From NCBI GenBank assembly GCA_031370645.1, contig JANMQV010000009.1, forward strand, positions 2,200-66,199: a stretch of 64,000 nucleotides of DNA. The letters run 5' to 3'. A program made the position numbers and the translations under genes. Within the stretch, counting starts at the first letter, position 1; each line of letters starts with the position of its first letter. Positions 6,648 to 59,109 of this stretch are shown here, piece by piece. Under the pieces are notes generated by a model, which ran no database searches, had not been told where the DNA came from, and worked only from the letters and a program-made list of their open reading frames with translations. The stretch comes from Candidatus Eiseniibacteriota bacterium. GTDB taxonomy: Bacteria > Eisenbacteria > RBG-16-71-46 > SZUA-252.

Positions 6648-7556
6648 ATGACGCACCCGGCGCCAACCACGGAGTCCGCAGCGGCCGTGACGCCGCGCGT
6701 CTCCATTCTCGGCGATCTGACCGATATCGCGCGCGACTTTTGGCATTATCGCGACCTCCTCTACCAGGTGACGCTTCGCGACATCCGCATCCGCTACAAG
6801 CAAGCGGTCATGGGATTCGGCTGGGCGCTCCTCATGCCGGCGTTGGTCGTTCTCGCCGGGCTCCTCATCAAGATCGCCATGGCCAGTTTTGCGGGGAAGG
6901 CGATCCAATCGACCGATATCGCGAGCGTGATGGTGAAGGCCATCCCGTGGGCGTTCTTCGTCGGCGCGATCGGCTTCTCGGCGGCGAGCCTTCTCTCCAA
7001 TATCCAACTGGTCACGAAGGTTTACCTTCCTCGAGAGGTGTTCCCGGTCGCCGCGACGATCGCCCAAGCATTCGACACCTTGATCGGCGCGACAGTGGCG
7101 ACAATCGTGCTCCCGTTCATGGGTGTGACCTTCTCGTGGACCCTGGCGTGGGTGCCGGTCTTGGCGCTCCTTCTCTTTCTATTCACGACGGCTGTCGGGC
7201 TCTTTCTCAGTTGCGCGAATCTCTTCTTCCGAGACGTGAAGTACATCGTGCAGGTTCTACTCACTTTTGGGATTTTCTTCACTCCCGTGCTGTTCGACGC
7301 GTCGATGTTCGGAGCTAAGGGTTCGGTGCTCGTGATGCTCAATCCGCTCTCGCCCTTTCTCGAGGGGCTCCGACTCTGCATCGTGAAGCACCACGATCTC
7401 CTACAGGTACTCACGATCGTGAACGCCGCGGGACAGACCATCCTGGTCTGGAGCCCCTGGTACCTGCTTGCCGCCTTCGTCTGGAGCGTCGGAGGATTCC
7501 TTGCCGCCTCGCTCTACTTCCACCGTCTCGAGTTCGTGTTCGCCGAGTACATCTAG
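6648..7556 (+). CDS. wzm: ABC-2 type polysaccharide export permease (Wzm/TagG/KpsM family)
   Basis: ABC-2 signature (DIRIRYKQAVMGFGWALLMP) and six predicted TM helices. It is immediately upstream of an ATPase. Confidence 0.8.
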   Translation: MTHPAPTTESAAAVTPRVSILGDLTDIARDFWHYRDLLYQVTLRDIRIRYKQAVMGFGWALLMPALVVLAGLLIKIAMASFAGKAIQSTDIASVMVKAIPWAFFVGAIGFSAASLLSNIQLVTKVYLPREVFPVAATIAQAFDTLIGATVATIVLPFMGVTFSWTLAWVPVLALLLFLFTTAVGLFLSCANLFFRDVKYIVQVLLTFGIFFTPVLFDASMFGAKGSVLVMLNPLSPFLEGLRLCIVKHHDLLQVLTIVNAAGQTILVWSPWYLLAAFVWSVGGFLAASLYFHRLEFVFAEYI

Positions 7557-7597
7557 CCGCGTGAGCGCGCGAACGAACAGGAACGGGGAATAAGCCC

Positions 7598-8821
7598 ATG
7601 AGCGAGTACGCCATCGAAGTCGCCGATGTCTGGAAGAAGTTCCATCGCGGCGCGATCCACGACAGTTTGCGGGACCTGGTCCCGGCGGTGGCGAAGCGAC
7701 TCGTCGGCCGCGGCCCCAAGCCGGCCGAGCTCGAGAAGGGCGATTTCTGGGCGCTCCGTGAAGTGACCTTCCAGGTGAAGCCGGGGGAAGCGCTCGGGAT
7801 CATCGGGCCGAACGGCGCCGGCAAGTCGACGATGCTGAAGGTCCTCACGAAGATCCTGCGTCCGACGCGCGGGAGTTGCATCGTGCGCGGTCGCGTGGGC
7901 GCGCTGATCGAGGTCGCAGCCGGTTTCCATCCCGATCTGACGGGAATGGAAAACATCTTCCTTCAGGGCGCGATCATGGGGATGCGCTCGGCGGAAATCG
8001 CCCGGAAAGTCGACGAGATCGTGGCGTTTGCTGGCGTCTCTGACTTCATCGACACGCCGGTGAAGCGTTATTCCTCTGGCATGCACGCGCGCCTCGGATT
8101 CTCGGTCGCGGCGCATCTCGACCCCGATGTGCTCCTGATCGACGAAGTTCTTTCGGTTGGGGACATGGCGTTTCAGGAGCGCTGCATCGAGCGCATGAAA
8201 CAGTTCAAGCGCCAGGGTGTGGCCATCGCCTTCGTCTCGCACAACATGCAGGCCGTGGCCGAGCTCTGCGATACGGGAGTCTACCTCTCCAGCACCGTCC
8301 GGGAAATCGGCACGGCCAATCAGGCGATCGGCACCTACGTCCGCTCCGTCTCTCAACAGACCGCATCCCCGAAGGGGGCCGCGATCGACATCGTGAAGGC
8401 GGAGTTGATCGACGAAGCGGGGGAGCCCGCCGTGAACGTGAGCCCCGGCGCGCCGTTGACGCTCCGCGTCACCTATCAGGTGCAAAAGCCGACCAAGGAA
8501 TACCATATGCGGTTTATTCTCTATCGCTCGACGGACGGCCTGAAGGTATTCGACGGAAATCTTCGAAGCGACGAGCTCGGACTGGACTCGGTCCAGGCAG
8601 GGGAGCGCTTCACGATCGATTTCAAATTCCGAGCGCACCTTGTCCGGGGGCAGTATCACATCGCCACCTGGGTCTTCGACAACCCGACGCTGGCGCCGAT
8701 CTCGCACCTGGTCCCCTGCGGTCTCTTCGCCGTCAGCGAGACGAGGACATACGGGGGAGGGGTCGCCGACCTCGAACTCACGTGCGGCGGCGTGGGACGG
8801 TCGGCCCCGGTTCGCGTCTAA
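7598..8821 (+). CDS. wzt: ABC transporter ATP-binding protein for polysaccharide export (Wzt/TagH family) with C-terminal substrate-binding beta-sandwich extension
   Basis: Walker A (GPNGAGKST), signature (YSSGMHARLGF), Walker B (LLIDEV) and an H-loop (SHN). It carries a roughly 150-aa C-terminal extension, as in Wzt carbohydrate-binding domains. Confidence 0.85.
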   Translation: MSEYAIEVADVWKKFHRGAIHDSLRDLVPAVAKRLVGRGPKPAELEKGDFWALREVTFQVKPGEALGIIGPNGAGKSTMLKVLTKILRPTRGSCIVRGRVGALIEVAAGFHPDLTGMENIFLQGAIMGMRSAEIARKVDEIVAFAGVSDFIDTPVKRYSSGMHARLGFSVAAHLDPDVLLIDEVLSVGDMAFQERCIERMKQFKRQGVAIAFVSHNMQAVAELCDTGVYLSSTVREIGTANQAIGTYVRSVSQQTASPKGAAIDIVKAELIDEAGEPAVNVSPGAPLTLRVTYQVQKPTKEYHMRFILYRSTDGLKVFDGNLRSDELGLDSVQAGERFTIDFKFRAHLVRGQYHIATWVFDNPTLAPISHLVPCGLFAVSETRTYGGGVADLELTCGGVGRSAPVRV

Positions 8822-9015
8822 CGCTTAGCCGGCCTCGGTCCGCCGGCGGCCAAATGTCGACGAGGTAGAGCCTCATTGGGGGCCCGAAACCTGCTATGAT
8901 TGAGGTTGAAGTGTCGCCCGTAGGTGAAACGTGGACCTTAGTTTAGGCCAGCAGCGCTCGCGAAGCGCCGACCCCGATCGAGCGACCCCTGGCCGGGCCC
9001 TTTCCAAGCCCGCCG

Positions 9016-9032
9016 TGGCGCGAAGCTTGCAA
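9016..9032 (+). promoter_or_regulatory. Candidate sigma54 (RpoN) promoter, TGGCGCG-N4-TTGCAA, about 55 nt upstream of the epimerase-rfbF operon
   Basis: GG and GC dinucleotides with exact -24/-12 spacing. It matches TGGCAC-N5-TTGCW at 10 of 11 consensus positions. It lies in a 265-bp intergenic region, and a sigma54-dependent activator (PrsR) is encoded in the same window. Confidence 0.4.
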
Positions 9033-9086
9033 CCTCACTCCCCGGTTCGACCCGGAAGCGTTTCTCCCATCGTAAAGGGCGCCTGA

Positions 9087-10154
9087 ATGAAAGTACTAGT
9101 CACCGGACATCAGGGGTACATCGGCTCGGTTCTGACCCCGCTCTTCCAGCGCTCCGGCCACGAGGTGGTTGGTCTCGACAGCGGGCTCTTCGCCGACTGC
9201 ATCTTCGGGGCCGCCCCGCCCGAGGTTCCCTCGATCCGAGTCGATCTCCGGGATGTCACCGTCGACACGCTTCGTGGGTTCGACGCGGTGATTCACTTGG
9301 CCGCGCTCTCGAACGACCCGCTTTCGAACCTGAATCCGAACATCACCTACGACATCAATCACCGCGCGACCGTGCGGCTCGCGGCCCTGGCCAAGGAGGC
9401 GGGCGTCAGCCGCTTCCTCCAGTCCTCCTCCTGCAGCCTCTACGGCAAAGCGGGGGACGAGATGCTGACCGAAAGCGCCGGCTTCAATCCCGTGACGGCG
9501 TACGGCGAATCGAAGGTGTTCGTCGAGCGCGACGTGGCCGCCCTGGCGGACGACCGCTTCAGCCCCACGTACCTCCGGAACGCCACCGCGTACGGTTCGT
9601 CTCCGAGGCTACGCGCCGATTTGGTCGTGAACAATCTCGTCGGCTACGCCTACACCACGAGGCGCATTCTGATCATGAGCGACGGCTCGCCCTGGCGCCC
9701 GCTGGTTCACCTTGAAGATATCTCCCGGGCGTTTCTTGCGATCATGGAAGCGCCCCGCGAGCGGATCCACAACGAGGCGTTCAACGTCGGGCGGAACGAG
9801 GAGAACTACCGGGTTCGCGAGCTGGCCGCGATGGTCAAGGAGGCGATCCCCGCGAGCGAAGTACAATATGCCGAGGGCGGCGGACCCGATACGCGCGACT
9901 ACCGCGTCGACTGCAGCAAGATCGCGCGGGTCATCCCCGAGTTCAAACCGCAATGGACGGTCCGGCGCGGCATCGAGGAGTTGTTGGACGCGTATCGGAA
10001 GAACGGTCTGACGACCGAGGAGTTCCTTAGCTCTCGATACCTTCGCATCAAGCGGGTCACGGAACTGCAGGGAAGCGGAGAGCTCGATTCCGAGCTCCGC
10101 CGTACGAAGCGTGGCCCGGAAGCCGCGACCGCTTCGGCGCGTCGATCGGGCTGA
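9087..10154 (+). CDS. NAD-dependent epimerase/dehydratase family protein (extended SDR)
   Basis: N-terminal [12 protein letters not shown] Rossmann motif and the catalytic YGESK. It has a low-complexity C-terminal tail of about 25 aa. Confidence 0.7.
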
Positions 10155-10164
10155 GGAGAGAACC

Positions 10165-10953
10165 ATGAAGGTCGTGCTCTTCTGCGGTGGGCTCGGACTT
10201 CGGCTCGGAGACGGCCCCAACGCCACTCCGAAGCCGATGGTGATGATCGGCCAGCGTCCGATTCTTTGGCACGTCATGAAGTACTACGCCCACTACGGCC
10301 ACAAGGATTTCATCCTCTGCCTCGGCCATCGGCCCGGCGCGATCAAGGACTACTTCCTCACTTACAGCGAAGCCGTCTCGAACGACTTCGTCCTCTCCGA
10401 GGGCGGTCGCACGATCCGACTCCTGAATCAGGACATCGCCGACTGGCGCATCACCTGCATCGACACGGGACTTAACTCGACGATCGGTCAGCGGCTGCGG
10501 GGCGTTCGCGAGCACCTCGCCGGCGAAGAGGTCTTCCTCGCCAACTACAGCGACGGGGTCTCCGATCTTCACCTTCCGGGCCTGATCGACGGGTTCGTCG
10601 CGGGGCCCTGCGTCGGCGCGGTGGTCTGCGTCCGCCCGCCGCTCAGTTATCACGCCGTCGAAATTGGGAAGGGCTCGCGTGTCGAGAGCGTTCGCCCCTT
10701 CACGGAGGCGGGGCCGCTCATCAACGGCGGCTTCTTCGTCCTTCGCCAGTCGATCTTCGACTACTACAAGGACGGCGAGGATCTCGTGGTCCACGCCTTC
10801 CCTCGCCTCGTGGCGAAGGGGCTTCTCCTCGGCCACGAGCACAAGGGATTCTGGGCGAGCATGGACACGTTCAAGGACAAGCAGGCGCTGGAGGAACTCA
10901 TGGCGCGCGGCGACGCCCCGTGGGAGATCTGGCGGCAGGGCCCGCGCGCTTGA
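10165..10953 (+). CDS. rfbF: Glucose-1-phosphate cytidylyltransferase
   Basis: MKVVLFCGGLGLRL, PKPMVMIGQRPILWHVMKYY, INGGFFVL, GFWASMDTFKDK and APWEIW match RfbF. The ATG is preceded by GAGGAG. The longer ORF from 10111 is an unlikely N-extension. Confidence 0.85.
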   Translation: MKVVLFCGGLGLRLGDGPNATPKPMVMIGQRPILWHVMKYYAHYGHKDFILCLGHRPGAIKDYFLTYSEAVSNDFVLSEGGRTIRLLNQDIADWRITCIDTGLNSTIGQRLRGVREHLAGEEVFLANYSDGVSDLHLPGLIDGFVAGPCVGAVVCVRPPLSYHAVEIGKGSRVESVRPFTEAGPLINGGFFVLRQSIFDYYKDGEDLVVHAFPRLVAKGLLLGHEHKGFWASMDTFKDKQALEELMARGDAPWEIWRQGPRA

Positions 10954-11600
10954 GGTCGCTCGGGATTCTCGATCACCTGCCGCGAAACCCGACGATTCTC
11001 TGCCTCGGGGCTCACTGCGACGACATCGAGATAGGTTGCGGCGCGTCGATGCTCCGGATCCTTCGCGAACGGAAAGACGTCTCGGTCCGGTGGGTCGTCC
11101 TGAGTTCCACGGAGGTGCGGGCGCGCGAAGGCACGGCGGCGGCGACCCTCTTCCTCCGGGGCGCCAAGCGCCGCATGGTGAGGATCGAAGCGTTCACGGA
11201 CGGCCATTTCCCGTACCAGGGCGCCGAGATCAAGCAGGTCTTCGAGGAACTCAAGCAGGACTCCACGCCCGACCTGATCTTCACCCATTATCGCGACGAC
11301 CGACACCAAGACCACCGGGTCGTCAGCGACAGCACCTGGCAGACCTTCCGCGATGCGATGATCCTGGAATACGAAATTCCAAAGTACGACGGAGACCTCG
11401 GCATTCCGAACGTCTTCACGGAGATTGATTCTGCGACCTGCGAACGAAAGATTCGATACCTCACGAAGTGCTACGCCACGCAGCGCGCGAAACCTTGGTT
11501 CACCGCGGAGACGCTTCGAGCGCTCATGCGGATTCGGGGCGTCGAGTCGCGCGCGCCCCGCTATGCCGAGGCGTTTCACGGCCGAAAACTCGTCCTCTAA
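10920..11600 (+). CDS. PIG-L/LmbE family N-acetylglucosaminyl deacetylase
   Basis: LCLGAHCDDIEIGCG metal-binding motif followed by HxDH (HQDHRVV). The start is uncertain (GTG 10920 or TTG 10950). It overlaps the rfbF stop. Confidence 0.7.
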   Translation: MGDLAAGPARLRSLGILDHLPRNPTILCLGAHCDDIEIGCGASMLRILRERKDVSVRWVVLSSTEVRAREGTAAATLFLRGAKRRMVRIEAFTDGHFPYQGAEIKQVFEELKQDSTPDLIFTHYRDDRHQDHRVVSDSTWQTFRDAMILEYEIPKYDGDLGIPNVFTEIDSATCERKIRYLTKCYATQRAKPWFTAETLRALMRIRGVESRAPRYAEAFHGRKLVL

Positions 11601-11639
11601 CGTTCCGTGCCCCCTTCGGGCGTCCCCAGGAGTGGATCC

Positions 11640-12203
11640 ATGATCTTCACCGAAACCAAGTTGAAGGGAGCCTTCATCGTCGACCTCGAGCGCCGGGAGG
11701 ATAGCCGCGGCTTTTTCGCCCGATCGTTCTGCCAGCACGAGTTCGAGGAGCACGGCTTGAAACCAGTCATCGCCCAGGCGAACATCGCCTTCAACGTTCG
11801 GAAGGGCACCCTTCGGGGAATGCATTTCCAGTTTCCGCCGGCGGCGGAGACGAAGCTCGTTCGGGCCACCCGGGGAGCGATCCTGGACGTCATCGTCGAC
11901 CTCCGCCCCGAGAGCCCAACCTACCTCCAACACGTCGCCGTGGAACTGAGCGCCGAGAATCACCGCGCGCTCTACGTTCCGGAGCGATTCGCGCACGGCT
12001 ATCAGGTTCTCGAAGACACCACCGAGACGAGCTACCAGGTGGGGGAGTTCTACGCGCCCGGAACCGAGGGGGGCCTCCTCTACTCGGACGAACGGCTCGG
12101 GCTCCGCTGGCCGCTTCCGGTCACCGAGATCTCCCCCAAGGATGCCGTCTGGAAGCCACTAAGCGAGGTGGAGGCCGAGGTGAAGCGGCGGATGACTCGA
12201 TGA
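11640..12203 (+). CDS. RmlC-like cupin sugar-nucleotide 3,5-epimerase (dTDP-4-dehydrorhamnose 3,5-epimerase family)
   Basis: ETKLKGAFIV, RGFFARSF, GMHFQ, RGAILDVIVDLR and FAHGYQVL motifs. ATG at 11640; the upstream ORF extension is unlikely. Confidence 0.75.
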   Translation: MIFTETKLKGAFIVDLERREDSRGFFARSFCQHEFEEHGLKPVIAQANIAFNVRKGTLRGMHFQFPPAAETKLVRATRGAILDVIVDLRPESPTYLQHVAVELSAENHRALYVPERFAHGYQVLEDTTETSYQVGEFYAPGTEGGLLYSDERLGLRWPLPVTEISPKDAVWKPLSEVEAEVKRRMTR

Positions 12204-13528
12204 TCCTCGTCGACACCGCGCTCCAGGCGCGCGAGGAGCAGGGAAAGCCGATCCGCGTCGGTATGATCGGCGCCGGCTTCATGGGGCAGGGGCTCACGAA
12301 CCAAATCGTGAACAGCGTGCCCGGCATGCGCATGGCCGCGATCTACAACCGGAAGCCGGAGCGCGCCGTCGGCGTCTACCACTACTCGGGCTGCCCCGAT
12401 GTGGTCGTGGCGAAGACGCAAGCGGCCCTCGACGACGCCGTGCGCCGTGGGGTTCCCGCGGTGGCGGAAGACGCGTTCACGATCTGCCGCTCCCCGGAGA
12501 TCGACGTTCTGATCGACGTGACGGGCTCGGTCGATTTCGGCGCCCAGGTCATCCTCGAAGCGTTCCAGCATGGAAAGTCGGTCGTGCTCATGAACGCCGA
12601 GGTCGACGCGACCCTGGGGCCGATCCTTCGCGTCTATGCGAAGAAGCACGGCGTCATCCTCTCCGCCTGCGACGGGGACGAGCCGGGCGTGCAGATGAAT
12701 CTCTACCGCTGGGTGAAGGGGCTGGGACTCACGCCGCGCGCCATGGTGAACGTGAAGGGGCTGCAGGATCCCTATCGGAATCCCACGACCCAGCAAGCGT
12801 GGGCGGAGCGCTGGGCGCAGAACGCGGCCATGGTCACTTCCTTCGCGGACGGCTCGAAGATCAGCTTCGAGCAGTCGATCGTCGCGAACGCCACCGGCTT
12901 CAAGGTTCGTTCGCGCGGAATGTCCCGAGGGCTCGAGTTCAAGGGCTCCGTCATGGATGTCCAGAAGATCTACGACGTGGAGGAGCTGCGCGCCCTCGGG
13001 GGGATCGTCGACTACGTCGTCGGACTTCCGCTGGTGAAGGTGTTCTGCCTCGCGGAACATACCGACCCCAAGCAGCAGCACTACCTGAACCTCTACAAGA
13101 TGGGGGAAGGGCCGCTCTATCCCTTCTGGATCCCCTATCACCTCGTCCACTTCGAAACCCCGTTCGCGATCGCGCGCGTGGTCCTCTTCAAGGACGACGT
13201 GGCGCCGTCGTTGGGAGGCCCGGTCGTCGAGGTTTGCGCCTTGGCGAAACGGAATCTCAAGTCGGGGGAGGTGCTCGACGCCTACGGCATGTATATGACC
13301 TACGGTGAGGCGGCGAACGCGGAGGAGATGAACCGAGGGCGGTACTTGCCGGAGGGGCTTGTGGAGGGATGCCGCTTGCGACACGACATCGCGAAGGACG
13401 CCGTGCTCACCTACGACGATGTCGAGCTACCGGAGGGGCGCCTGGCCGATCGCTTGCGCGCCGAGCAGTACCGGCACTTTCGAGGCGAAACCTGGCTCGA
13501 AGATCGGCTCGCCGCTCGTCCTACCTGA
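12200..13528 (+). CDS. NAD(P)-binding oxidoreductase with SAF domain (COG4091-like, 'predicted homoserine dehydrogenase' family)
   Basis: N-terminal GMIGAGFMGQG Rossmann motif, about 440 aa, architecture typical of COG4091. ATGA start/stop overlap with the upstream gene. Confidence 0.55.
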   Translation: MILVDTALQAREEQGKPIRVGMIGAGFMGQGLTNQIVNSVPGMRMAAIYNRKPERAVGVYHYSGCPDVVVAKTQAALDDAVRRGVPAVAEDAFTICRSPEIDVLIDVTGSVDFGAQVILEAFQHGKSVVLMNAEVDATLGPILRVYAKKHGVILSACDGDEPGVQMNLYRWVKGLGLTPRAMVNVKGLQDPYRNPTTQQAWAERWAQNAAMVTSFADGSKISFEQSIVANATGFKVRSRGMSRGLEFKGSVMDVQKIYDVEELRALGGIVDYVVGLPLVKVFCLAEHTDPKQQHYLNLYKMGEGPLYPFWIPYHLVHFETPFAIARVVLFKDDVAPSLGGPVVEVCALAKRNLKSGEVLDAYGMYMTYGEAANAEEMNRGRYLPEGLVEGCRLRHDIAKDAVLTYDDVELPEGRLADRLRAEQYRHFRGETWLEDRLAARPT

Positions 13529-16469
13529 GCAGGGCGAGCTTCATCGAGCGCGCCCCGTCGGAGGCTTCCAGGCGCGCGATGTAGATCCCGGTCGACAGAA
13601 GCATACCGCTATCCGATGTTCCATCCCACCCGACTGAGTGCTCCCCTTCGGAAAGCCTCGGGAGAGCGAACGTCTTCACGAGTCGTCCCGCCACGTCGAA
13701 AATCCGCAACGTCGCCTGTTCCGCCGTCGTCAACCGATAGCGAATCCTCGTATTTGGATTGAAGGGGTTGGGATCGGCGCTAAGGAGGGCGCTGGTCCTC
13801 GGAGGGGAGTTCTGCCCCGTGTCGACGGCGGTTAGGATGGGATTCGCCATGTCGTGCTGGACCTCCGCGGCCGACAGCGCGCGGTTGTAGATCAGGACCT
13901 CGTCGATTCGCCCTGTGAAGAACTGGCCGAAGAGGGCGTCACCCCCGACGGAAAGCGGGCCGCCCGATGTAGGCAAGGAGTCCGTCTCCGCTCGGTTGCT
14001 CACCTCGTTGCCGTTCAGATAGAGCCGAATCATGGCCCCATTGTAGGTCGCCGCCAAATGCGACCACGCGTTCACAGGCAATGGTGAGACGGAGTAGAGG
14101 GGGTACGTGATACTCGAACCCGTTGCGGCCCTCCCGCCGGGCGTCGCGGTCGCCGCGAGAAAGAAATCATCGTTCTGCTTCATGATGACGTCGGACCAAT
14201 TGCCGACCTGCGCCGTCGGGTAGACCCAGGCCTCCAGCGTCATCGCCGATTTCAGGCGGAGTGATGGTGAGTCGGGAATCGTGACCTTCGAGGTGGTCCC
14301 GTTGAACTGAAGCGCGTTCCCGTACTTTCCCAACGCGGTCCACGTCGCGCCGGAGAGCGTCCCCGTGTTGCTGTTCCCTGATTTGTCCGCCGCCGTCGTC
14401 CCGCTCCCGGCGGCGAAATCGTAGGCCGCCACCAGTCCGAACGGAGTCCCGGCCGGGCCGAATGTCGCGGACCAGCTCGCGTCGCTCGTCGGCACGATGA
14501 TTTCGTGAGATCGGAGCCCTCCGTCCGACCAGGCGGCGAAGTCGTACCATTGCCCCGTCACGAGCTGCGGCGGCGCGTTGATCGTGTAATGAAACCCCTT
14601 CAGCGCATCCAGCACGAAGGGCGAGACCTTTCGGATGCCATCGACGTCGAGCGAAAGCCCGCTCGGTTGGGTCGAGAACGACAAATTCACCTTGTCCGGA
14701 TAGACGCGGACTGAGTTCGAGGCCGAGAGGCCGCTCGCGTCGGTGACGGTCAGAATGATCTCGTAGTTCGTCGAGCTGGTGAAGTCGTGCCCGCTGATTG
14801 GAATGGTGAAGGTCCCGGAGACTCCCGGAAACGGCCCGCCCGCGGGATGGACATGCGTCAGGTGGTGAAACAGGATGTTCCAGGCGTAGGCGCTCGGCGG
14901 GAGGGGATTCCCGGACCCGTCGAGCCCGCTTCCGGAGTAGGAGATCACGTCTCCCGCTCGGAACAGGATTCCGTCCGCCGGGGTCAGGATCTGCACGGTG
15001 GGGGGGACGCCGACCGTGATGACGAGATTGCTCGAGAGCGTCGAGTTCACGCCGTCGGAGACCTGGACCCGAGCGGTGTATGTCCCGTTCGCCGCGTACG
15101 TGTGCGACGGATTCGCCGCGGTGGAGGTGGCGAGATCCCCGAAGGTCCAGAGATAGGTGAGGGGCTGGCCCTCCGGATCGAGCGACCCGGCGCTGGAGAA
15201 GGCGACTGTGAGCGGCGCGGAGCCTATTCGCGGCGTCGCGTCCGCGACCGCTACGGGAGCAGCATTACCGGTCGAGTACCGGATGCGGCGGATGGTGGCC
15301 TCGTTCGGTTCGTGCACGTCGTTGAAGCCGATGTCCACGTAATAGAGCGCGCCGTCGGGGCCCTGGAGGAGCTTCGTGAAATCGCCGTAGGGCCCGTCCG
15401 GCGTACCGTCGGTCGGTTCGAAATTGAGGACCGAGGCCAGATTTCCGGAGCCGTCGAAAGTCAGACGCTTGATCCAATTCTGAGAATAATCCGCAAAGAA
15501 ATAACTCCCCTCATAACCGCTGGGGAAATTGCCGCCTCGGTAAACGAAGCCCCCCATGATGGCGGCATCCCGTCCCGAGTGCCCGTAGTCGTAAAGGGGA
15601 TTGGTCATTCCGGGCGTGGCGCAGGCGCCCTCGCAGAGGGGCCACCCGTAGTTCGCGCCGGCGACCCCGATGTTGACCTCTTCTCGCGCGGTCGCCACGG
15701 AATTGCCGCCGACATCCGCGATGAAGATTCGCCCGCTCGTGGCGTCGTAGTTCATACGAACCGGATTGCGAAGTCCGTACGCCCAAATTTCATCGTAGTT
15801 CGGCCCCGCGCCGTCGTAGAACGGATTGTCCGTCGGGATCGAACCGTCGGGATTGACGCGCAGCAACTTGCCGCGGTAGGTGTCGAGGCGCTGGGCATCG
15901 TTGGCGTAGAACGCTTCGCCGACCGCGATGAACAGCTTGCCCTGGGGACCAAAGGCGAGGCCCCCGCCATGGTGGTCGAAGTTGGCGTCGGCATCATCCT
16001 GCCAGATGACGACCTCGCTTCCCGCGAGCGTGGTGTCGCCGTTCGCCGTAAATCGGCCGACGCGGTCGTGGTTCCCACCCGTGGCGAAGCACTTTGTGTA
16101 GAAGACGTAGTACCAACTGTTCGTCGCGAAATTGGGGTCGAGGATGATCTCCATCAATCCCTGTTCGCCGGCGAGGGTACTGTTGTCGAGCGCGAGGAAG
16201 GGGTTCGGCTCGGGCGTGCTCAAACCAGGATGGACCACCCAGATCCGTTCGTTCAATTCGCCGACCAGCATGCGGCCGTCGGGGAGGAACGCGATCGTGA
16301 GCCCCGAGGAGATTCCCGGGACGATGACCTCGTTGACGAAATTCGGGGGGGCAGCTGCTGCGGGGTGAACGTGAAGGGATTGGCCCAACGTTAGAAGGGT
16401 GAAGATAATGCCGCGAAGGCCACGACGGGCCGCCCTCGCGTAGGTCGTCCCGCGAACCGCATCCACCAT
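13521..16469 (-). CDS. Large secreted multidomain protein: PQQ-dependent sugar dehydrogenase-like beta-propeller + PKD + Ig-like + LamG/concanavalin-like + T9SS-type C-terminal sorting domain
   Basis: GSDH motifs (IWAYGLRNP, GRIFIADVGGN), a PKD segment (PLTYLWTFGD...YTARVQVSDG) and a LamG-like region (GNALQFNGTTSKVTIPD...LYLNGNEV). The C-terminus is PNPFNPNTRIRY...GIYIARLEA...KLALLR, resembling TIGR04183. The start was chosen at the internal Met preceding a signal-like segment; the ORF extends to 16574. Confidence 0.7.
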   Translation of the reverse strand: MVDAVRGTTYARAARRGLRGIIFTLLTLGQSLHVHPAAAAPPNFVNEVIVPGISSGLTIAFLPDGRMLVGELNERIWVVHPGLSTPEPNPFLALDNSTLAGEQGLMEIILDPNFATNSWYYVFYTKCFATGGNHDRVGRFTANGDTTLAGSEVVIWQDDADANFDHHGGGLAFGPQGKLFIAVGEAFYANDAQRLDTYRGKLLRVNPDGSIPTDNPFYDGAGPNYDEIWAYGLRNPVRMNYDATSGRIFIADVGGNSVATAREEVNIGVAGANYGWPLCEGACATPGMTNPLYDYGHSGRDAAIMGGFVYRGGNFPSGYEGSYFFADYSQNWIKRLTFDGSGNLASVLNFEPTDGTPDGPYGDFTKLLQGPDGALYYVDIGFNDVHEPNEATIRRIRYSTGNAAPVAVADATPRIGSAPLTVAFSSAGSLDPEGQPLTYLWTFGDLATSTAANPSHTYAANGTYTARVQVSDGVNSTLSSNLVITVGVPPTVQILTPADGILFRAGDVISYSGSGLDGSGNPLPPSAYAWNILFHHLTHVHPAGGPFPGVSGTFTIPISGHDFTSSTNYEIILTVTDASGLSASNSVRVYPDKVNLSFSTQPSGLSLDVDGIRKVSPFVLDALKGFHYTINAPPQLVTGQWYDFAAWSDGGLRSHEIIVPTSDASWSATFGPAGTPFGLVAAYDFAAGSGTTAADKSGNSNTGTLSGATWTALGKYGNALQFNGTTSKVTIPDSPSLRLKSAMTLEAWVYPTAQVGNWSDVIMKQNDDFFLAATATPGGRAATGSSITYPLYSVSPLPVNAWSHLAATYNGAMIRLYLNGNEVSNRAETDSLPTSGGPLSVGGDALFGQFFTGRIDEVLIYNRALSAAEVQHDMANPILTAVDTGQNSPPRTSALLSADPNPFNPNTRIRYRLTTAEQATLRIFDVAGRLVKTFALPRLSEGEHSVGWDGTSDSGMLLSTGIYIARLEASDGARSMKLALLR

Positions 16470-16705
16470 TGTTTCCAGATTCCTCTCTGCAGCACTTCTT
16501 GAAGCACCACGCTGTTTCGGAGCATCAAAGGATGCCCGGTGGGCGACTCCGGCGCCTCGGGGGGAGAGCCACACACGGAGAGAGTATACCGCGCCACCGA
16601 GCGAAACCGTGCTTCATTACTGCAGATGGGCGCTGTAAACCATTGTAGGGTGGATTGTTGCAGCAAGTGGCGCGGCGCCTGTTCGGGGAGCGATGGGGCT
16701 CTCAG

Positions 16706-34247: not shown

Positions 34248-34249
34248 AC

Positions 34250-35554
34250 GTGGACCACGTCCGAGAGCTCGTGGCACGGCACTTCGGCGAACGCGGCGGA
34301 GAGCTCTTGGTCGGCGGCATGGCGATTCGTGAATTGGCGGAGAAGTTCGGTACGCCGCTCTTCATCTACGACGCCGCCGCCATCGATCGGCAGATCGAGA
34401 ATCTCCGCTCCACCTATCCCGCGCCATTCGAGATCTACTACTCAGTCAAGGCGAACCCCTGTCCCGCGGTGGTCCGCCACTTCGTGGAGCGCGGCCTCGG
34501 GCTCGAGATCGCCTCCGGCGGGGAATTCCACCAGGCGATTCGGGCGGGATGCGCGGCCGATCGAATTCTCTTCGCGGGTCCCGGGAAGAGCGAGCGGGAA
34601 CTCGCCTACGTCCTCGAACACGGAATCGGCGAGATCCATCTCGAGTCGATCCTCGAGGGGAAGCGGGTCGCGTCGATCAGCAAGCGATTGGGAATTCGAA
34701 CGCGAGTCGCGCTTCGAGTCAATCCGGGCGCCGAAGCGCAGGGGGGCGCCATGCGAATGGGCGGGAAGCCGGCCCCGTTTGGCGTGGACGAAGAGCTCCT
34801 CGACGACGTCCTCAATCATTTGCTGGCCGAGTCGTCGCTCGATCTCCAGGGAATCCACCTCTACGCGGGGACGCAGATCCTCGACGACCGGATCCTCGTG
34901 ACGCAGTACCGTCGAGGAATCGAGATCGCCCGGCGCGTTGCCGACCGGATGGGCCGCCCGCTCCGAACGATCGATTTCGGGGGCGGGCTCGGCATTCCCT
35001 ACTTCCCGAGCGAGTCGCCGCTGCCCCTCGCGCCGCTTGCGGAGGGTCTCGCGGTGATGGTGAAGGAGCTCCAGCCGGATGCTCGATTCGCGGGCACGCG
35101 TTTCATCATCGAACCGGGCCGCTATCTCGTCGGCGAAGCGGGGATCTACGTCACGCGCGTGAACGACATGAAGGTCTCGCGCGGGAAGACGTTTCTCGTC
35201 GTCGACGGCGGAATGAATCACCACTTGGCGGCGTCGGGAAATCTCGGCCAGGTCATCAAACGGAATTTCCCGGCCGCGATCTTGAATCGTCTTCAGGGCG
35301 ATTCAACGCTGAAGGCCGACGTTGTCGGCCCGCTCTGCACGCCGCTCGACGTCATTGCCCGCGACCTTCCGCTTCCCGCCGCCGAGGTAGGGGATCTGTT
35401 CGGAATCTTCCAGTCGGGAGCCTACGGCCGCTCGGCGAGCCCACTCGGATTCCTGAGCCAGCCTACGCCCGCGGAAGTGCTGGTCCGAAACGGGGAGGCG
35501 ATCCTGGCGCGTCGCGCCGGAACGTTCGAAGAGACCCTTGGAGACGTCCCCTGA
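34250..35554 (+). CDS. Pyridoxal-dependent decarboxylase, exosortase A system-associated (Orn/DAP/Arg decarboxylase fold-III family, TIGR03099-like)
   Basis: FEIYYSVKANPCPAVV (PLP lysine), a GGGLGIPYF motif, and EPGRYLVGEAG. It is the 3' third of ORF 32744..35554. GTG start 3 nt after the ligase stop. Confidence 0.8.
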   Translation: MDHVRELVARHFGERGGELLVGGMAIRELAEKFGTPLFIYDAAAIDRQIENLRSTYPAPFEIYYSVKANPCPAVVRHFVERGLGLEIASGGEFHQAIRAGCAADRILFAGPGKSERELAYVLEHGIGEIHLESILEGKRVASISKRLGIRTRVALRVNPGAEAQGGAMRMGGKPAPFGVDEELLDDVLNHLLAESSLDLQGIHLYAGTQILDDRILVTQYRRGIEIARRVADRMGRPLRTIDFGGGLGIPYFPSESPLPLAPLAEGLAVMVKELQPDARFAGTRFIIEPGRYLVGEAGIYVTRVNDMKVSRGKTFLVVDGGMNHHLAASGNLGQVIKRNFPAAILNRLQGDSTLKADVVGPLCTPLDVIARDLPLPAAEVGDLFGIFQSGAYGRSASPLGFLSQPTPAEVLVRNGEAILARRAGTFEETLGDVP

Positions 35555-39659: not shown

Positions 39660-40083
39660 GTCGTTCGCTCCGGGCTCGGCCGCACGAGAGTTAGGCGTAG
39701 GGAGTTGGATCCCGATGACCATCTCGCGCGTTGCGTGTTTGGGGTCGATCAGAACCGAGTACCCCGTTTTGGGCGAACTCGTTCCCGAATCCACCCGGAA
39801 TTTAGCACGATTCGGGCCAAGTCGCGCTCCCGTATGGAATCGAGCACTTGGCGCCGAATCATTCCCGATTCATCGACAGAACGCGTGTCGCGGCTTGCAC
39901 TCCGCGAGGGCGAAATCGCGAAGCGCGGTGAAAACCGAGCCGGTCGTTCCGCATCCAATGGTTCTACCCCTTCCGGCGGCAGGAAAAGGTGTGCCGTCTG
40001 GCCGGGGGACTAACGTCCCGGCAGGAAACGTGTTAGGCCGATCGATGCGCTCCCTGCAAACGCCGGGAGAAGCGGAGTGGCGT

Positions 40084-40099
40084 TGGTGCGAAATTTGCG
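40084..40099 (+). promoter_or_regulatory. Candidate sigma54 promoter TGGTGCG-N4-TTGCG, about 55 nt upstream of the Fn3/CTD gene and exosortase
   Basis: Correct GG-N10-GC spacing, with 2 mismatches in the -24 box. It lies in a 495-bp divergent intergenic region. Confidence 0.3.
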
Positions 40100-42733: not shown

Positions 42734-43145
42734 TTCCTCCCGCTTCACCTCCTCACCCCCAAACGATTCTCGTTCGATCGCGTGCAGCATGAGCGACCGC
42801 CGCGTGCGGATCGCGCCGTGCATCGTGCGCGTTCGGACACGCCTCGCGCGCTAGCTGCTTACCGACGACCGTGTTTGCAGCGTGCAGGGTGCACCGCGCG
42901 TACTCCGCGCCATGGCACATTTCGTGCAGACACTGGCGCGCGGTGGGATGGGGGTCCTGCCAAACATCAATCGAGTCCCATGAACGCATGCGACCCGCCC
43001 TCTCGGGTGGGGAGCAACACCGTGGGCAATCGGACCCAGGCGAACGCTCGCGTTCGGCTGGGTACAGAACTGCATCTCGAGGAGGATCTCCATGCGCCGT
43101 TGCCTACCTGTTCCTCACCACCCCCTTCGCGGCCCTCGAATCGCG

Positions 43146-48202: not shown

Positions 48203-48543
48203 GCAGCCCTCCTTACGGCGGCGCGCACGCGCCTGCATCGCGCACCCTCCCGGCGCGTTCGAGCCAATCTCTCTCCTTCTTCGAACCCTCATCGCGAGAC
48301 GCCTCACTGTGCAATATGCGGCATCCGTACCGATCCGTGCGTGGCTGGTTCGACGCGCCGCCATGCGCGCGATGCACCCCCTTGCGCCGCAACGAAGTCG
48401 AGGCTCGCGGAGCGCCGCAGCGCCGCTTTTCCCGTGGCACGCTAACTGCTTTAACGGGAAGTGGGTCTGCTGTGTCGCACCGCGCCAGGGGGTCGAAGGC
48501 CGGCGACCAGGCTATGGGGGATTCTTCAGACGGGAGATTTCTT

Positions 48544-51278: not shown

Positions 51279-53192
51279 GTGCGGCCCGAGACGCGGATGC
51301 GGCATGCATGGAGCGATCGCCCCCTTCGCGATTCCACTTTGAGACAACCCACACGGAGTACGCAGCGAGCCACGGTCGAGCGGCTGTGGCGACGCGCCGA
51401 AGAGATCCGCTCGCTCTGCGGCCTTCCTCCCTTGCCGCCCGAGGTCCCGGGTTCGCCCGACGGGCCGGACGCGGCGTCGCTCGAATTCCTCGTCGATTAT
51501 CTCCTTCACGACCTCGAAGGAAATTTTCGTCGCGAGCTCGCGACGCGCGTGCAGCTCGAAGGCCTCGCCGAACTCATGGCCACGACCGCCGGGGGTTCGG
51601 AGCCCGGGCGGGGCTACGGCCTGCTCGTGAACTATCTCGCCCGCGCCCTCGACGAGCCGCGTCTTTGGATCGGTGTCGTCGACGGGCAGCCGCCGACCTT
51701 CACGCTCTTCCGGGCGGGCGATCCCACGCTTCACGACGTTCAGCCGGATCGGGTGCATCTCCAGTGGCTTCATCCCGACTGGCTCCAGTGGCTCGCCCTC
51801 GGGGAGGGGGAGCCGGCGCTCTGGTCGGACCCCACCGGTTCGCGGAAAGGCGGCCCATGGCACGCCGTGCCGATTCGAGGCGAGATCCCGCACGATCGTT
51901 TCACCGGCGAGGTGACGGCCTGTCCCGGCTCGCTCGCCTCGGGCGACGCCTGCGCGCTCTCGCGCGGCCCTCTCGAAGAAATGGCGGGCGGGCACCGAGC
52001 CTGCGGCCGCTGCCAATTCCGCCGCATCGCAGGTCTCGTCGGGATCGAGGGGACTCTTCCGACGGAGCGGCGCGCGAGCCTTGAAGCCGTCGCCCCATCG
52101 CTCGGGCCGATCCTCGTCACCCTCGCGCTCCGTGAGGCGCTCGATCTCGAGGCGCGCTTCCGGGACGGCGTGATCGAGGAACTTCCGCTCGGAATCGTGG
52201 CCATTGACGAGCGGGGCCGCGCCCTCGCCTGGAATCGCGCGGCGGAGTCGATCGTCGGTCTCTCGAAGGAGCAGGTGCGTTCCACGCCGCTCGCAAGACT
52301 GCTGCCGGACCGGAGCTGGCATCAATCGCTCGTCCGGAGCCTCGAACTCGGCGTGGAGACCGATCGGACCGAGCACGACGTCGTCCGATCGGACGGGACC
52401 TCGCTCCCCGTGGAAGTCCGCACGTCCCCGCTCCGGGACGGCGAAGGGAGGATTCGGGGCGCCGTCGGAACGATGGTCGATCTCTCGAGCCTGAAGGGAA
52501 TGGAGGAGCGGATCCGCCAACTCGACCGGCTGGCCGCGGTCGGCCGATTCGTCTCGAGCGTCGCCCACGAGCTTCGAAACCCCCTGACGGGGATCGCCAC
52601 GGGCGTGCAGTACCTGAGCCGCGGGTTTCCCGAGGGGGACGAGCGCCACGAGAGCGTCACCTTCATTCTCCGCGAAGTCGTCCGGCTCAATACCATCATC
52701 CAAGACCTCTTCACGGCGGCGCGCCCTCGCGATCTCGTCCTGGCCCGTACCCCGGTCCTGGAAATCATCGACCGCGTCGTCCGGACCCTCTCCGGGGGGG
52801 CCGAAGCCTCGGGGGTCACGATCGCGCTGGAAGGTGCCGATAGGTGGCCCGATGCCATGATTGACGCCGACCAGGTCCAGCAGGTGTTCCTGAACCTGGT
52901 CGAGAACGCGATTCACGCCACCGCTCCAGGCGGAACGATTTCCATCCGCTCCGTCCGGCGATCCGCCCCGCCGGAGATCGTGGTGACCGTGGAGGACACG
53001 GGCGCGGGCATGCCGCCGGAGCAGCAGGCGCGCATCTTCGAGCCCTTCTATACGACGAAGGCGAAAGGCACCGGCCTTGGGCTCTTCGTGGCGCACGGTA
53101 TCGTGCAGCGGCATGGCGGGGCCATCGAGGTCGAAAGCGAGCCGGGCCGCGGAACTCGATTCCGCGTCGCCCTCCCCGGCACCCAGGAATAA
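51279..53192 (+). CDS. Sensor histidine kinase, PrsK-like (cytoplasmic; GAF/PAS-HisKA-HATPase)
   Basis: HisKA H-box (VSSVAHELRNPLTGI), N-box (FLNLVENAIHAT), G1/G2 boxes (VEDTGAGM, GTGLGLFVAHGIV), and a PAS-like segment (LPLGIVAIDERGRALAWNRAAESIVGL). No TM helices. The start is GTG 51279 or ATG 51297. Confidence 0.8.
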   Translation: MRPETRMRHAWSDRPLRDSTLRQPTRSTQRATVERLWRRAEEIRSLCGLPPLPPEVPGSPDGPDAASLEFLVDYLLHDLEGNFRRELATRVQLEGLAELMATTAGGSEPGRGYGLLVNYLARALDEPRLWIGVVDGQPPTFTLFRAGDPTLHDVQPDRVHLQWLHPDWLQWLALGEGEPALWSDPTGSRKGGPWHAVPIRGEIPHDRFTGEVTACPGSLASGDACALSRGPLEEMAGGHRACGRCQFRRIAGLVGIEGTLPTERRASLEAVAPSLGPILVTLALREALDLEARFRDGVIEELPLGIVAIDERGRALAWNRAAESIVGLSKEQVRSTPLARLLPDRSWHQSLVRSLELGVETDRTEHDVVRSDGTSLPVEVRTSPLRDGEGRIRGAVGTMVDLSSLKGMEERIRQLDRLAAVGRFVSSVAHELRNPLTGIATGVQYLSRGFPEGDERHESVTFILREVVRLNTIIQDLFTAARPRDLVLARTPVLEIIDRVVRTLSGGAEASGVTIALEGADRWPDAMIDADQVQQVFLNLVENAIHATAPGGTISIRSVRRSAPPEIVVTVEDTGAGMPPEQQARIFEPFYTTKAKGTGLGLFVAHGIVQRHGGAIEVESEPGRGTRFRVALPGTQE

Positions 53193-53204
53193 GAGGCGAC
53201 GCTC

Positions 53205-54633
<1,429 letters not shown>

Positions 54634-54647
<14 letters not shown>

Positions 54648-59103: not shown

Positions 59104-59109
59104 GGTTTG

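What the first reader, a model, noticed from the sequence alone, without database searches (positions are those of the whole stretch)
9016..9032. Near-consensus sigma54 promoter ahead of the CDP-sugar sub-operon, matching the PrsR activator in the same window
TGGCGCG-AAGC-TTGCAA has the invariant GG and GC at exact -24/-12 spacing, with only one mismatch elsewhere. It lies 55 nt upstream of the epimerase/rfbF/PIG-L/RmlC-like/SAF-oxidoreductase genes and directly after the wzm-wzt stop. The window also encodes PrsR, a sigma54 enhancer-binding protein (53205-54647). PrsK/PrsR-dependent expression of XrtA-locus genes is predicted from genomic context but largely untested. This gives a concrete testable promoter.
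Basis: seen in the sequence. Interest (0 to 1): 0.5.

Follow-up and report, generated by a model that had tools for sequence, protein, structure and literature searches.

The report
Conserved sigma-54 promoter before sugar operon

Summary
TGGCGCGAAGCTTGCA lies at 9016-9031(+), with GG and GC at exact -24/-12 spacing and one mismatch to TGGCACG-N4-TTGCW. It is 55 nt before the ATG at 9087.

It is not chance. About 0.19 such sites are expected per 64 kb. The same element sits before the orthologous epimerase gene in at least six distinct Eisenbacteria lineages. Pairwise identity there is 85% in the motif and 34% in the flanks, and the 4-nt spacer varies.

Four more sigma-54-type sites in the window are also conserved in orthologous loci:
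- 39819-39804(-)
- 40084-40099(+), ahead of the xrtA operon
- 42913-42928(+)
- 48435-48450(+), ahead of the PorV-like/priming transferase/kinase/activator operon

XrtA is present. The activator at 53205-54647 fails the PrsR model (377.8 against a cutoff of 502.6), and the kinase fails PrsK (103 against 300). Both are generic NtrC/AtoS-like, and the activator has a GAFTDA loop. No evidence links this activator to this promoter. The motif starts 195 nt after the wzt stop, not directly after it. A conserved sigma-70-like extended -10 element (8892-8900) suggests a second promoter upstream.

Verdict: a sound new member of a known kind, of moderate interest.

The parts
9016..9031 (+). P1: sigma-54-type promoter core, TGGCGCG-AAGC-TTGCA (-24 GG at 9017-18, -12 GC at 9029-30). 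This is the finding itself.
   Evidence: Conserved in at least six Eisenbacteria lineages with diverged flanks.
9041..9043 (+). Predicted transcription start, about 11-13 nt after the -12 GC. The 5' UTR would be about 45 nt, with a conserved AAGGG ribosome-binding site at 9073-9077.
   Evidence: Inferred from sigma-54 promoter geometry (established knowledge). RBS conservation is visible. No transcript data.
9087..13528 (+). Five-gene operon served by P1: SDR epimerase/dehydratase (9087-10154), RfbF-like sugar-1-P nucleotidyltransferase (about 10165-10953), PIG-L deacetylase (10920-11600), RmlC 3,5-epimerase (11607-12203), DRL-type oxidoreductase (12200-13528). Gaps are at most about 10 nt or the genes overlap. 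A convergent gene follows.
   Evidence: The same gene order is found in L161-L168.
8892..8900 (+). TGCTATGAT, a sigma-70-type extended -10-like element and probable second (upstream) promoter for the same operon.
   Evidence: Only 2 matches to TGNTANNAT in the window. A like element is seen in 9 of 11 orthologous intergenic regions, including those lacking the sigma-54 motif: 8, plus a TGCTAT element read in the printed L165 sequence.
6648..8821 (+). Upstream wzm-like permease (6648-7556) and wzt ATPase with Wzt_C domain (7598-8821). They end the preceding co-directional gene run.
39804..39819 (-). P2: sigma-54-type site TGGCCCG-AATC-GTGCT, 144 nt before the ATG (39659) of a secreted beta-helix protein.
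   Evidence: Orthologues: L174 TGGCCCGGATTGTGCT, L175 TGGCCCGAAACGTGCT.
40084..40099 (+). P5: sigma-54-type site TGGTGCG-AAAT-TTGCG, about 58 nt before the likely start (about 40158) of an fn3/T9SS-tail protein gene that abuts xrtA (41198-42733).
   Evidence: conserved block GGTGGCGTTGGTGCGGAATTTGCGTCAT in three genomes. XrtA identity.
42913..42928 (+). P3: sigma-54-type site TGGCACA-TTTC-GTGCA, 163 nt before an fn3 secreted-protein gene (43092).
   Evidence: The 16-mer is identical in L174 and L175, inside an unusually conserved intergenic region.
48435..48450 (+). P4: sigma-54-type site TGGCACG-CTAA-CTGCT, 94 nt before the likely ATG (48545) of the PorV-like gene. Co-directional genes follow: priming glycosyl-phosphotransferase, histidine kinase, enhancer-binding protein.
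   Evidence: Orthologues: L171 TGGCACAGTAGCTGCA, L173 TGGCACGCTCCCTGCT, with diverged flanks.
51279..54647 (+). PAS histidine kinase (51279-53192) and NtrC-family response regulator / sigma-54 activator with GAFTDA loop and Fis-type HTH (53205-54647). Candidate activator, not proven, and not PrsK/PrsR.
   Evidence: Conserved synteny in L171-L173.

Best explanation
The motif at 9016-9031 is a functional sigma-54 (RpoN) promoter. Sigma-54 holoenzyme would bind the -24 TGGC and -12 TTGC blocks as a closed complex. It would start transcription near 9041-9043 only when an ATP-hydrolysing enhancer-binding protein remodels it. The transcript would cover the five-gene nucleotide-sugar modification operon 9087-13528, which presumably supplies a modified hexose for the polysaccharide exported by the adjacent Wzm/Wzt transporter.

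The organism is a member of Candidatus Eisenbacteria. The promoter is one of at least five conserved sigma-54-type promoters spread over this XrtA/exopolysaccharide locus, so the locus probably forms a sigma-54 regulon. A conserved sigma-70-like extended -10 element 124 nt upstream probably gives a basal promoter, with the sigma-54 promoter adding signal-dependent induction.

The activator is unknown. The locus-encoded NtrC-family two-component pair (51279-54647) is the leading candidate, at roughly 0.4.

Shown: the motif, its statistics, its conservation, the gene content and the family scores. Inferred: sigma-54 binding, the start site, operon co-transcription, activator identity and physiological role.
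For: - Exact -24/-12 geometry with one mismatch.
- Expected frequency is 0.19 per 64 kb.
- Ten of the 16 sites of this quality in 1.76 Mb of fetched DNA lie at the orthologous position.
- At least six distinct lineages keep TGGC(G/T)CG-N4-TTGC(A/T) 55-98 nt before the epimerase ATG. Flanks are 34% identical against 85% for the motif, and the spacer varies. This is the pattern expected if only the two sigma-54 contact blocks are under selection.
- None of the non-Eisenbacteria loci carrying the homologous cassette has a site of this quality just upstream of the epimerase gene.
- All four sites with at most 2 mismatches that lie in correctly oriented intergenic DNA, plus a fifth weaker one, are conserved in orthologous loci.
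- A sigma-54 activator with an intact AAA+ domain is encoded in the window and conserved at 76-95% identity across the phylum. Its GAFTDA loop variant also occurs in a regulator of sigma-54-dependent genes in Desulfovibrio vulgaris, DVU2106 (PMC4641369).
Against: - No transcript or binding data exist.
- rpoN itself was not seen. It is not in the window and I could not query the genome. Its presence is inferred from the activator and the motifs.
- Four syntenic relatives (L002, L082/83, L167, L169) lack the motif, so it is dispensable in some lineages.
- No conserved activator-binding site was found upstream. In L084/L164 the motif sits 13 nt after the wzt stop, so any enhancer there would lie in coding DNA.
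- The fifth base is G or T, never the consensus A.
- A likely sigma-70 promoter upstream means the operon may not depend strictly on sigma-54.
Confidence: 0.8

Rival explanations
1. PrsK/PrsR model. The promoter belongs to the PEP-CTERM regulatory system: PrsR at 53205-54647, phosphorylated by PrsK, binds an upstream 'motif 1' and activates sigma-54 transcription at XrtA-locus genes.
For: - XrtA and several XrtA-system marker genes are present.
- The regulator has the same domain architecture as PrsR (receiver, sigma-54 AAA+, Fis HTH) and is next to a histidine kinase and to EPS genes.
- TIGR02915 is its third-best hit.
Against: - PrsR scores 377.8 against a cutoff of 502.6. PrsK scores 103 against 300, on the kinase core only.
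- No PrsT-sized TPR lipoprotein was seen.
- The family and its DNA site were described only in Proteobacteria, upstream of PEP-CTERM genes.
- No TTTACA-ending motif 1 is visible in 8822-9015 (read).
- The window's PEP-CTERM gene has no sigma-54 site upstream.
- Named close homologues are called NtrC/AtoC family or generic sigma-54-dependent regulator, not PrsR.
Confidence: 0.05
2. Same promoter, different activator. P1 is sigma-54-dependent but is driven by an enhancer-binding protein encoded elsewhere in the genome, not by the locus-encoded NtrC-family regulator.
For: - No shared upstream sequence links P1 to P2-P5.
- The one candidate (CTCGCGRAGYGC) is not conserved in orthologues.
- The strongly conserved candidate enhancer blocks at P3 and between P2 and P5 have no counterpart upstream of P1.
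- P1 is 44 kb from the regulator.
Against: - The regulator's synteny with the EPS locus is conserved, and its own operon has a conserved sigma-54 promoter, which fits a locus-wide circuit.
- The number of enhancer-binding proteins in these genomes is unknown.
Confidence: 0.4
3. The conserved 16-mer is the operator of a different DNA-binding protein, or a chance match, and the operon is transcribed only from the upstream sigma-70-like promoter or by read-through from wzt.
For: - A conserved extended -10-like element exists upstream, even in lineages lacking the motif.
- No intrinsic terminator was detected after wzt.
- The spacer AAGC is conserved in most lineages, more than sigma-54 alone would require.
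Against: - Conservation falls on exactly the two sigma-54 contact blocks at exact spacing, with spacer changes in L001 and L168.
- The element is not a dyad.
- Four further sites of the same architecture but different sequence are conserved in the same locus.
- The chance expectation is 0.19 per window.
Confidence: 0.08

Closest known systems
PEP-CTERM/XrtA cis-regulatory site with PrsK-PrsR-PrsT (Haft et al. 2006, PMC1569441; Aquincola pepA, PMC9850573)
   Same: - Sigma-54 -24/-12 promoters inside an XrtA exopolysaccharide locus.
- An NtrC-type response regulator and kinase are encoded beside EPS genes.
- The distance from motif to start codon (55 nt) is within the reported range (mean 71).
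   Different: - The host is not a proteobacterium.
- The regulator and kinase fail the PrsR and PrsK models.
- No motif 1 is present.
- The promoters precede sugar-biosynthesis, xrtA, secreted fn3/beta-helix and PorV-like genes rather than the PEP-CTERM substrate gene.
- In Aquincola the EPS biosynthesis genes were reported not to be RpoN1-regulated.
Vibrio fischeri syp polysaccharide locus with the locus-encoded activator SypG (Yip et al. 2005, cited in PMC9850573; details from my own knowledge)
   Same: - A large polysaccharide locus split into several operons, each with its own sigma-54 promoter.
- A response-regulator-type enhancer-binding protein is encoded within the locus.
   Different: - Unrelated phylum and gene content, with no exosortase.
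- The syp enhancer sequence is defined and dependence on SypG is demonstrated. Here both are inferred.
Canonical sigma-54 promoter consensus TGGCACG-N4-TTGCW (Barrios et al. 1999, from my own knowledge)
   Same: Invariant GG and GC, exact spacing, and 11 of 12 specified bases match.
   Different: The fifth base is G or T in every Eisenbacteria orthologue instead of A. The local family reads TGGC(G/T)CG-N4-TTGC(A/T).

Membership tests
Sigma-54 (-24/-12) promoter | GG and GC dinucleotides in a 12-nt register within TGGCACG-N4-TTGCW | tested here: met
   TGGCGCGAAGCTTGCA, one mismatch.
Sigma-54 (-24/-12) promoter | Intergenic, oriented toward a gene, with a suitable distance to the start codon | tested here: met
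   Lies in the 265-nt intergenic region, 55 nt before the ATG at 9087.
Sigma-54 (-24/-12) promoter | Selective conservation of the -24 and -12 blocks in orthologous regions | tested here: met
   At least six lineages. Motif 85% against flanks 34% pairwise identity. The spacer varies.
Sigma-54 (-24/-12) promoter | Genome encodes RpoN and at least one enhancer-binding protein | tested here: inconclusive
   An enhancer-binding protein is present. rpoN is not in the window and could not be searched for in the source genome.
Sigma-54 (-24/-12) promoter | Transcript start about 12 nt downstream, dependent on RpoN and an activator | not testable with these tools
   No transcript data, and the organism is uncultured.
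Sigma-54 (-24/-12) promoter | Upstream activator sequence (enhancer) about 80-150 bp upstream | tested here: inconclusive
   The candidate CTCGCGRAGYGC at 8957 is not conserved in orthologues. No other shared motif was found.
PrsR (TIGR02915, PEP-CTERM-box response regulator) | Score at or above the curated equivalog cutoff | tested here: not met
   377.8 against 502.6. NtrC (436.4) and AtoC (433) score higher.
PrsR (TIGR02915, PEP-CTERM-box response regulator) | Adjacent PrsK kinase (TIGR02916), with its own multi-pass membrane sensor domain | tested here: not met
   The kinase scores 103 against 300, matched only over residues 412-633. The best hit is AtoS. It has a PAS domain.
PrsR (TIGR02915, PEP-CTERM-box response regulator) | Bipartite site (motif 1 ending TTTACA, then about 63 nt, then the sigma-54 motif) upstream of PEP-CTERM genes, in Proteobacteria | tested here: not met
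   No TTTACA in 8822-9015. The PEP-CTERM gene 46244-46972 has no GG-N10-GC site upstream. The host is Eisenbacteria. Definition from PMC1569441.
Bacterial enhancer-binding protein (NtrC class) | Receiver domain, Sigma54_activat AAA+ domain and Fis-type HTH | tested here: met
   PF00072 90 bits, PF00158 237.5 bits, PF02954 38 bits.
Bacterial enhancer-binding protein (NtrC class) | GAFTGA sigma-54 contact loop | tested here: inconclusive
   The loop reads GAFTDA, as it does in all 120 closest homologues. The variant is listed as compatible with activation in D. vulgaris, but its effect is called unknown for VfmH.
XrtA (exosortase A) locus | XrtA above cutoff, plus XrtA-system marker genes and a PEP-CTERM substrate | tested here: met
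   - TIGR03109 287.7 > 208, with an EpsI fusion.
- TIGR03006 289 > 276.
- TIGR03108 1049.8 > 816.9.
- TIGR03098 632.9 > 592.
- TIGR03097 449.8 > 188.
- C-terminus ...VPEPASLLLLAPGLAGLLIRRKK.

The most novel reading that the evidence does not exclude
Eisenbacteria run their XrtA/exopolysaccharide locus as a multi-promoter sigma-54 regulon. It has at least five conserved -24/-12 promoters, including one ahead of xrtA itself and one ahead of the regulator's own operon. It would be governed by a phylum-conserved NtrC-family two-component system with a GAFTDA loop that is not PrsK/PrsR.

This would be an independently evolved, non-proteobacterial counterpart of the PEP-CTERM regulatory system. It would control the sorting enzyme, sugar supply and secreted T9SS/fn3 proteins rather than the PEP-CTERM substrates.
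Probability: 0.4. Interest if true: 0.55.

Novelty: new member of a known kind. Interest (0 to 1): 0.4.

Why it matters
Sigma-54 control of exosortase systems has been described, and partly tested, only in Proteobacteria. There the promoters sit in front of PEP-CTERM substrate genes.

This window gives well-supported, conservation-backed promoter predictions for an uncultured phylum. They suggest that a different set of genes (sugar-nucleotide supply, xrtA, secreted proteins, the priming transferase and the regulator itself) is under enhancer-dependent control, through a regulator that is not PrsR.

This corrects an annotation shortcut: an NtrC-like regulator near XrtA is not necessarily PrsR. 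It also supplies defined DNA fragments for in vitro sigma-54 binding and transcription tests, and for reading metatranscriptomes. For the single promoter flagged, the result is solid but ordinary.

Tried and rejected
- **Shared enhancer search.** I ran a k-mer search over the 220 nt upstream of four promoters. It gave CTCGCGRAGYGC, exact at 8957(+), 48404(+) and 39897(-). The pattern is post hoc, is not enriched at one mismatch (11 observed, 9.45 expected), and is absent from orthologous promoters apart from one-mismatch matches in the near-identical L081 and in L173. Rejected as an enhancer.
- **Rfam.** No family reaches its gathering score anywhere in the window. The intergenic region gives only sub-threshold noise.
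- **Sigma-70 and terminator consensus scan of 8500-9300.** Nothing was found. The extended -10-like element was seen only through comparison of orthologues.
- **GGGCCCGAAACCTGCT at 8880** as a second sigma-54 site in the same intergenic region. The spacing is not kept in L081 and the site is absent in L082. Rejected.
- **Small ORF at 8897-8947** (MIEVEVSPVGETWTLV). It is kept only in the near-identical L081 and has no start codon in L082. Not pursued.
- **AT-rich element as an IHF site.** It does not fit WATCAANNNNTTR, and its distance to the sigma-54 motif varies widely between lineages (the two starts are about 20 to 124 nt apart). Rejected in favour of a -10 box.
- **Literature.** A search for Eisenbacteria plus sigma-54 found no papers.

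Full report
**1. The observation**

Positions 9016-9032 read TGGCGCGAAGCTTGCAA. GG is at 9017-9018 and GC at 9029-9030, which is the sigma-54 -24/-12 register. Only the fifth base departs from TGGCACG-N4-TTGCW. The next gene starts at ATG 9087, 55 nt after the motif, as stated.

One detail is wrong. The preceding wzt ORF ends at 8821, so the motif starts 195 nt into a 265-nt intergenic region. It is not directly after the stop.

**2. Chance**

I required the invariant GG and GC and allowed one other mismatch. A first-order Markov model of the window (65.6% G+C) then gives 0.19 sites per 64 kb on both strands. Two are observed, at 9016 and 48435, and both lie in intergenic DNA pointing at the next gene.

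The tool's own dinucleotide shuffles, at up to two mismatches without the invariants, are not significant (10 observed, 5.6 expected). The signal therefore lies in site quality and placement rather than in raw counts.

**3. Organism and gene context**

The closest genome records are Candidatus Eisenbacteria metagenome-assembled genomes, at 86% amino-acid identity for the epimerase. GC3-based gene calling and family scans show a large exopolysaccharide locus containing:
- A chain-length determinant-like protein.
- UDP-glucose dehydrogenase.
- Glycosyltransferases.
- Wzm/Wzt.
- XrtA-system amidotransferase (TIGR03108, 1049.8).
- XrtA-associated acyl-CoA ligase (TIGR03098, 632.9).
- XrtA-associated O-antigen-ligase-like protein (TIGR03097, 449.8).
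- An XrtA-EpsI fusion at 41198-42733 (TIGR03109, 287.7 against a cutoff of 208).
- XrtA-system deacetylase (TIGR03006).
- One clear PEP-CTERM protein at 46244-46972.
- A PorV/PorQ-family protein.
- A priming glycosyl-phosphotransferase.
- A histidine kinase and a sigma-54 activator.

These are followed by lptE, a holA-like gene and leuS.

Downstream of the motif, five tightly packed genes run from 9087 to 13528:
- An SDR epimerase/dehydratase.
- An RfbF-like nucleotidyltransferase (TIGR02623, 215 against a cutoff of 300).
- A PIG-L deacetylase.
- RmlC (TIGR01221, 166.5 against 155.75).
- A DRL-type oxidoreductase.

They end against a convergent gene. 'CDP-sugar' is a fair guess but is not established.

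**4. Conservation of the flagged motif**

I fetched orthologous loci by scanning genome and metagenome collections with the epimerase. I added further loci by looking up contigs for its closest homologues. The wzm-wzt / epimerase cassette is syntenic across these loci.

The motif is found upstream of the epimerase ATG in these lineages:

| Locus | Motif | Start relative to ATG |
|---|---|---|
| window | TGGCGCGAAGCTTGCA | -71 |
| L081 | TGGCTCGAAGCTTGCA | -71 |
| L001 | TGGCGCGATGCTTGCA | -74 |
| L084 = L164 | TGGCTCGAAGCTTGCT | -99 |
| L161-163 | TGGCTCGAAGCTTGCT | -88 |
| L165/166 | TGGCTCGAAGCTTGCA | -114 |
| L168 | TGGCTCGGCCCTTGCA | -81 |

When six distinct lineages are anchored on the motif, mean pairwise identity is 85% in the 16-mer and 34% in the 30 nt on either side. 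The invariant columns are TGGC.CG and CTTGC, and the spacer changes in L001 and L168. This is the footprint expected of sigma-54 contacts.

In all 1.76 Mb of fetched loci there are 16 sites of this quality, and ten of them are at this orthologous position. None of the loci from other phyla that carry the homologous cassette has such a site just upstream of the epimerase gene.

The motif is absent from syntenic L002, L082/83, L167 and L169. It is also absent from relatives in which another gene abuts the epimerase (L085-87, L170). It is therefore lineage-variable.

**5. It is not alone**

I listed every GG-N10-GC site in correctly oriented intergenic DNA and corrected three over-long ORF starts. 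Four sites have at most two mismatches:

| Promoter | Position | Distance to ATG | Downstream gene |
|---|---|---|---|
| P1 | 9016(+) | 55 nt | epimerase operon |
| P2 | 39804(-) | 144 nt | secreted beta-helix protein |
| P3 | 42913(+) | 163 nt | fn3 protein |
| P4 | 48435(+) | 94 nt | PorV-like gene |

About 2.6 such sites are expected in the whole window. True, oriented intergenic DNA is under 3% of the search space.

Orthologous loci were fetched through the activator and through XrtA. They show that all of these sites are conserved:
- P4 reads TGGCACAGTAGCTGCA in L171 and TGGCACGCTCCCTGCT in L173.
- P3 is identical in L174 and L175.
- P2 reads TGGCCCGGATTGTGCT in L174 and TGGCCCGAAACGTGCT in L175.

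A fifth site, P5 at 40084-40099 (TGGTGCGAAATTTGCG), is conserved in all three genomes. It lies upstream of the gene that abuts xrtA.

The one PEP-CTERM gene I recognised in the window has no candidate site upstream.

**6. The regulator**

The protein at 53205-54647 has receiver, Sigma54_activat, AAA-lid and Fis-HTH domains. It is a sigma-54 activator of the NtrC class.

It is not PrsR by the family's own criterion. TIGR02915 scores 377.8 against a cutoff of 502.6, behind NtrC and AtoC. The kinase scores 103 against 300 for PrsK, on the catalytic core only, and AtoS is its best match.

Among its 120 closest homologues (down to about 58% identity, mostly Eisenbacteria), every source name shown is generic: NtrC/AtoC family or sigma-54-dependent regulator. 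All 120 carry GAFTDA instead of GAFTGA. This variant occurs in DVU2106, listed as a regulator of sigma-54-dependent genes in D. vulgaris. Its effect is called unknown for VfmH.

The gene order PorV/SPOR, priming transferase, kinase, activator, lptE, holA-like, leuS is conserved in three other contigs.

Haft et al. 2006 defined PrsK/PrsR/PrsT and their bipartite DNA site only in Proteobacteria, upstream of PEP-CTERM genes. Later work mapped an RpoN1-dependent start for a PEP-CTERM gene in Aquincola. It reported that EPS biosynthesis genes there were not RpoN1-regulated.

The weaker statement stands: a sigma-54 activator is encoded in the same locus.

**7. Which activator acts at P1 is open**

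My search for a shared upstream element produced one candidate, which failed the orthologue test. Strongly conserved blocks that could be enhancers do exist upstream of P3 and between the divergent P2 and P5. They have no counterpart upstream of P1. I put the locus-encoded regulator at about 0.4 for P1.

**8. A second promoter**

TGCTATGAT at 8892-8900 is one of only two TGNTANNAT matches in the window. A like element occurs in 9 of 11 orthologous intergenic regions, including those without the sigma-54 motif. Eight are listed, and a TGCTAT element is visible in the printed L165 sequence. Examples are:
- TGCTATCAT
- TGGTAGAAT
- TGGTAAGAT
- TGATAAAAT
- TGATATACT
- TACAAT/TATAAT

Its distance to the sigma-54 motif varies widely between lineages; the two starts are about 20 to 124 nt apart.

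The simplest reading is a sigma-70-type extended -10 promoter giving basal expression, with P1 as an inducible add-on in some lineages. If so, an unchanged transcript level without RpoN would not by itself refute P1.

**9. Comparison, novelty and score**

In function, this works like other polysaccharide loci with several sigma-54 promoters and a locus-encoded activator, such as V. fischeri syp or the proteobacterial PEP-CTERM/PrsR system. As a sequence feature it meets every testable criterion of a sigma-54 promoter. It is not a member of the PrsR system.

The flagged promoter is a new member of a known kind. The regulon-level picture in a non-proteobacterial, uncultured phylum is a modest extension of Haft 2006 and is the more interesting part.

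Scores:
- Confidence that P1 is a functional sigma-54 promoter: 0.8.
- Interest: 0.4.

Noticed in passing
window 42734-43091 (with L174 6537-6898 and L175 6540-6879): The xrtA-fn3 intergenic region is 84% identical across three genomes whose XrtA proteins are only 65-78% identical. It holds a conserved block, GTGCAGCATGAG...GCGTGCGGATCGCGCCGTGCATCGTGCG, about 100 nt upstream of the sigma-54 site (a possible enhancer dyad, TGCGGATCGCGCCGTGCA, at about 42805-42822). It also holds a conserved leader of about 165 nt before the fn3 gene. There is no Rfam match. It could be a structured leader RNA or a dense regulatory region.
   Followed up: partly
window 8892-8900 and orthologous intergenic regions: An AT-rich extended -10-like element (TGCTATGAT) is conserved in 9 of 11 orthologous wzt-epimerase intergenic regions, at varying distance from the sigma-54 motif. 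It is present even where that motif is absent. It is probably a tandem sigma-70-type promoter.
   Followed up: partly
window 39889-39945 (alignment A3 columns about 344-400): A conserved central block, CTTGCAC.CC..G.G..GAAATCGC.A....CGG.GAAA.CC..GCCGG, lies between the divergent sigma-54 sites P2 (39819-39804, -) and P5 (40084-40099, +). It is a candidate shared enhancer for both promoters.
   Followed up: no
window 53205-54647: The sigma-54 activator has GAFTDA in place of GAFTGA, as do all 120 closest homologues. This regulator is far more conserved across Eisenbacteria (76-95%) than the neighbouring XrtA (down to 46-65%).
   Followed up: partly
window 13521-16574(-), 40077-41198, 43969-44934, 48545-50127: The XrtA/PEP-CTERM locus is interleaved with type IX secretion features: proteins with Por_Secre_tail/FlgD_ig-like C-terminal domains and a PorV/PorQ-family gene. 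Two different protein-sorting systems therefore sit in one polysaccharide locus.
   Followed up: no
window 48316-50127, 38199-39794, 40077-41198: The longest-ORF starts are too far upstream. Likely true starts, judged by signal peptides and orthologue gene calls, are 48545, 39659(-) and about 40158. With these starts, three sigma-54 sites that first looked intragenic fall in intergenic DNA.
   Followed up: yes
L003-L080 and L088-L160 (loci from other phyla): The epimerase has 60-69% identical homologues in Thermoleophilia, Chloroflexota, Cyanobacteria, Planctomycetota and others. The gene, and possibly the whole cassette, may be widely shared or horizontally mobile. Synteny outside Eisenbacteria was not examined.
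   Followed up: no
window 8829-8850: A GC-rich palindromic hairpin (GCCGGC-N8-GCCGGC) lies just after the wzt stop and is partly kept in L081. It has no T-tract. It could be a weak or atypical terminator separating wzt from the downstream operon.
   Followed up: no
window 34248-35537 and 59104-61702: Two stretches (1.3 kb and 2.6 kb) have no confident gene call by GC3 and no Pfam hit on the ORFs tested. In L171-L173 the region corresponding to the second holds a GH57 glycoside hydrolase and small genes on the minus strand, so genes there may be disrupted or were missed by me.
   Followed up: no
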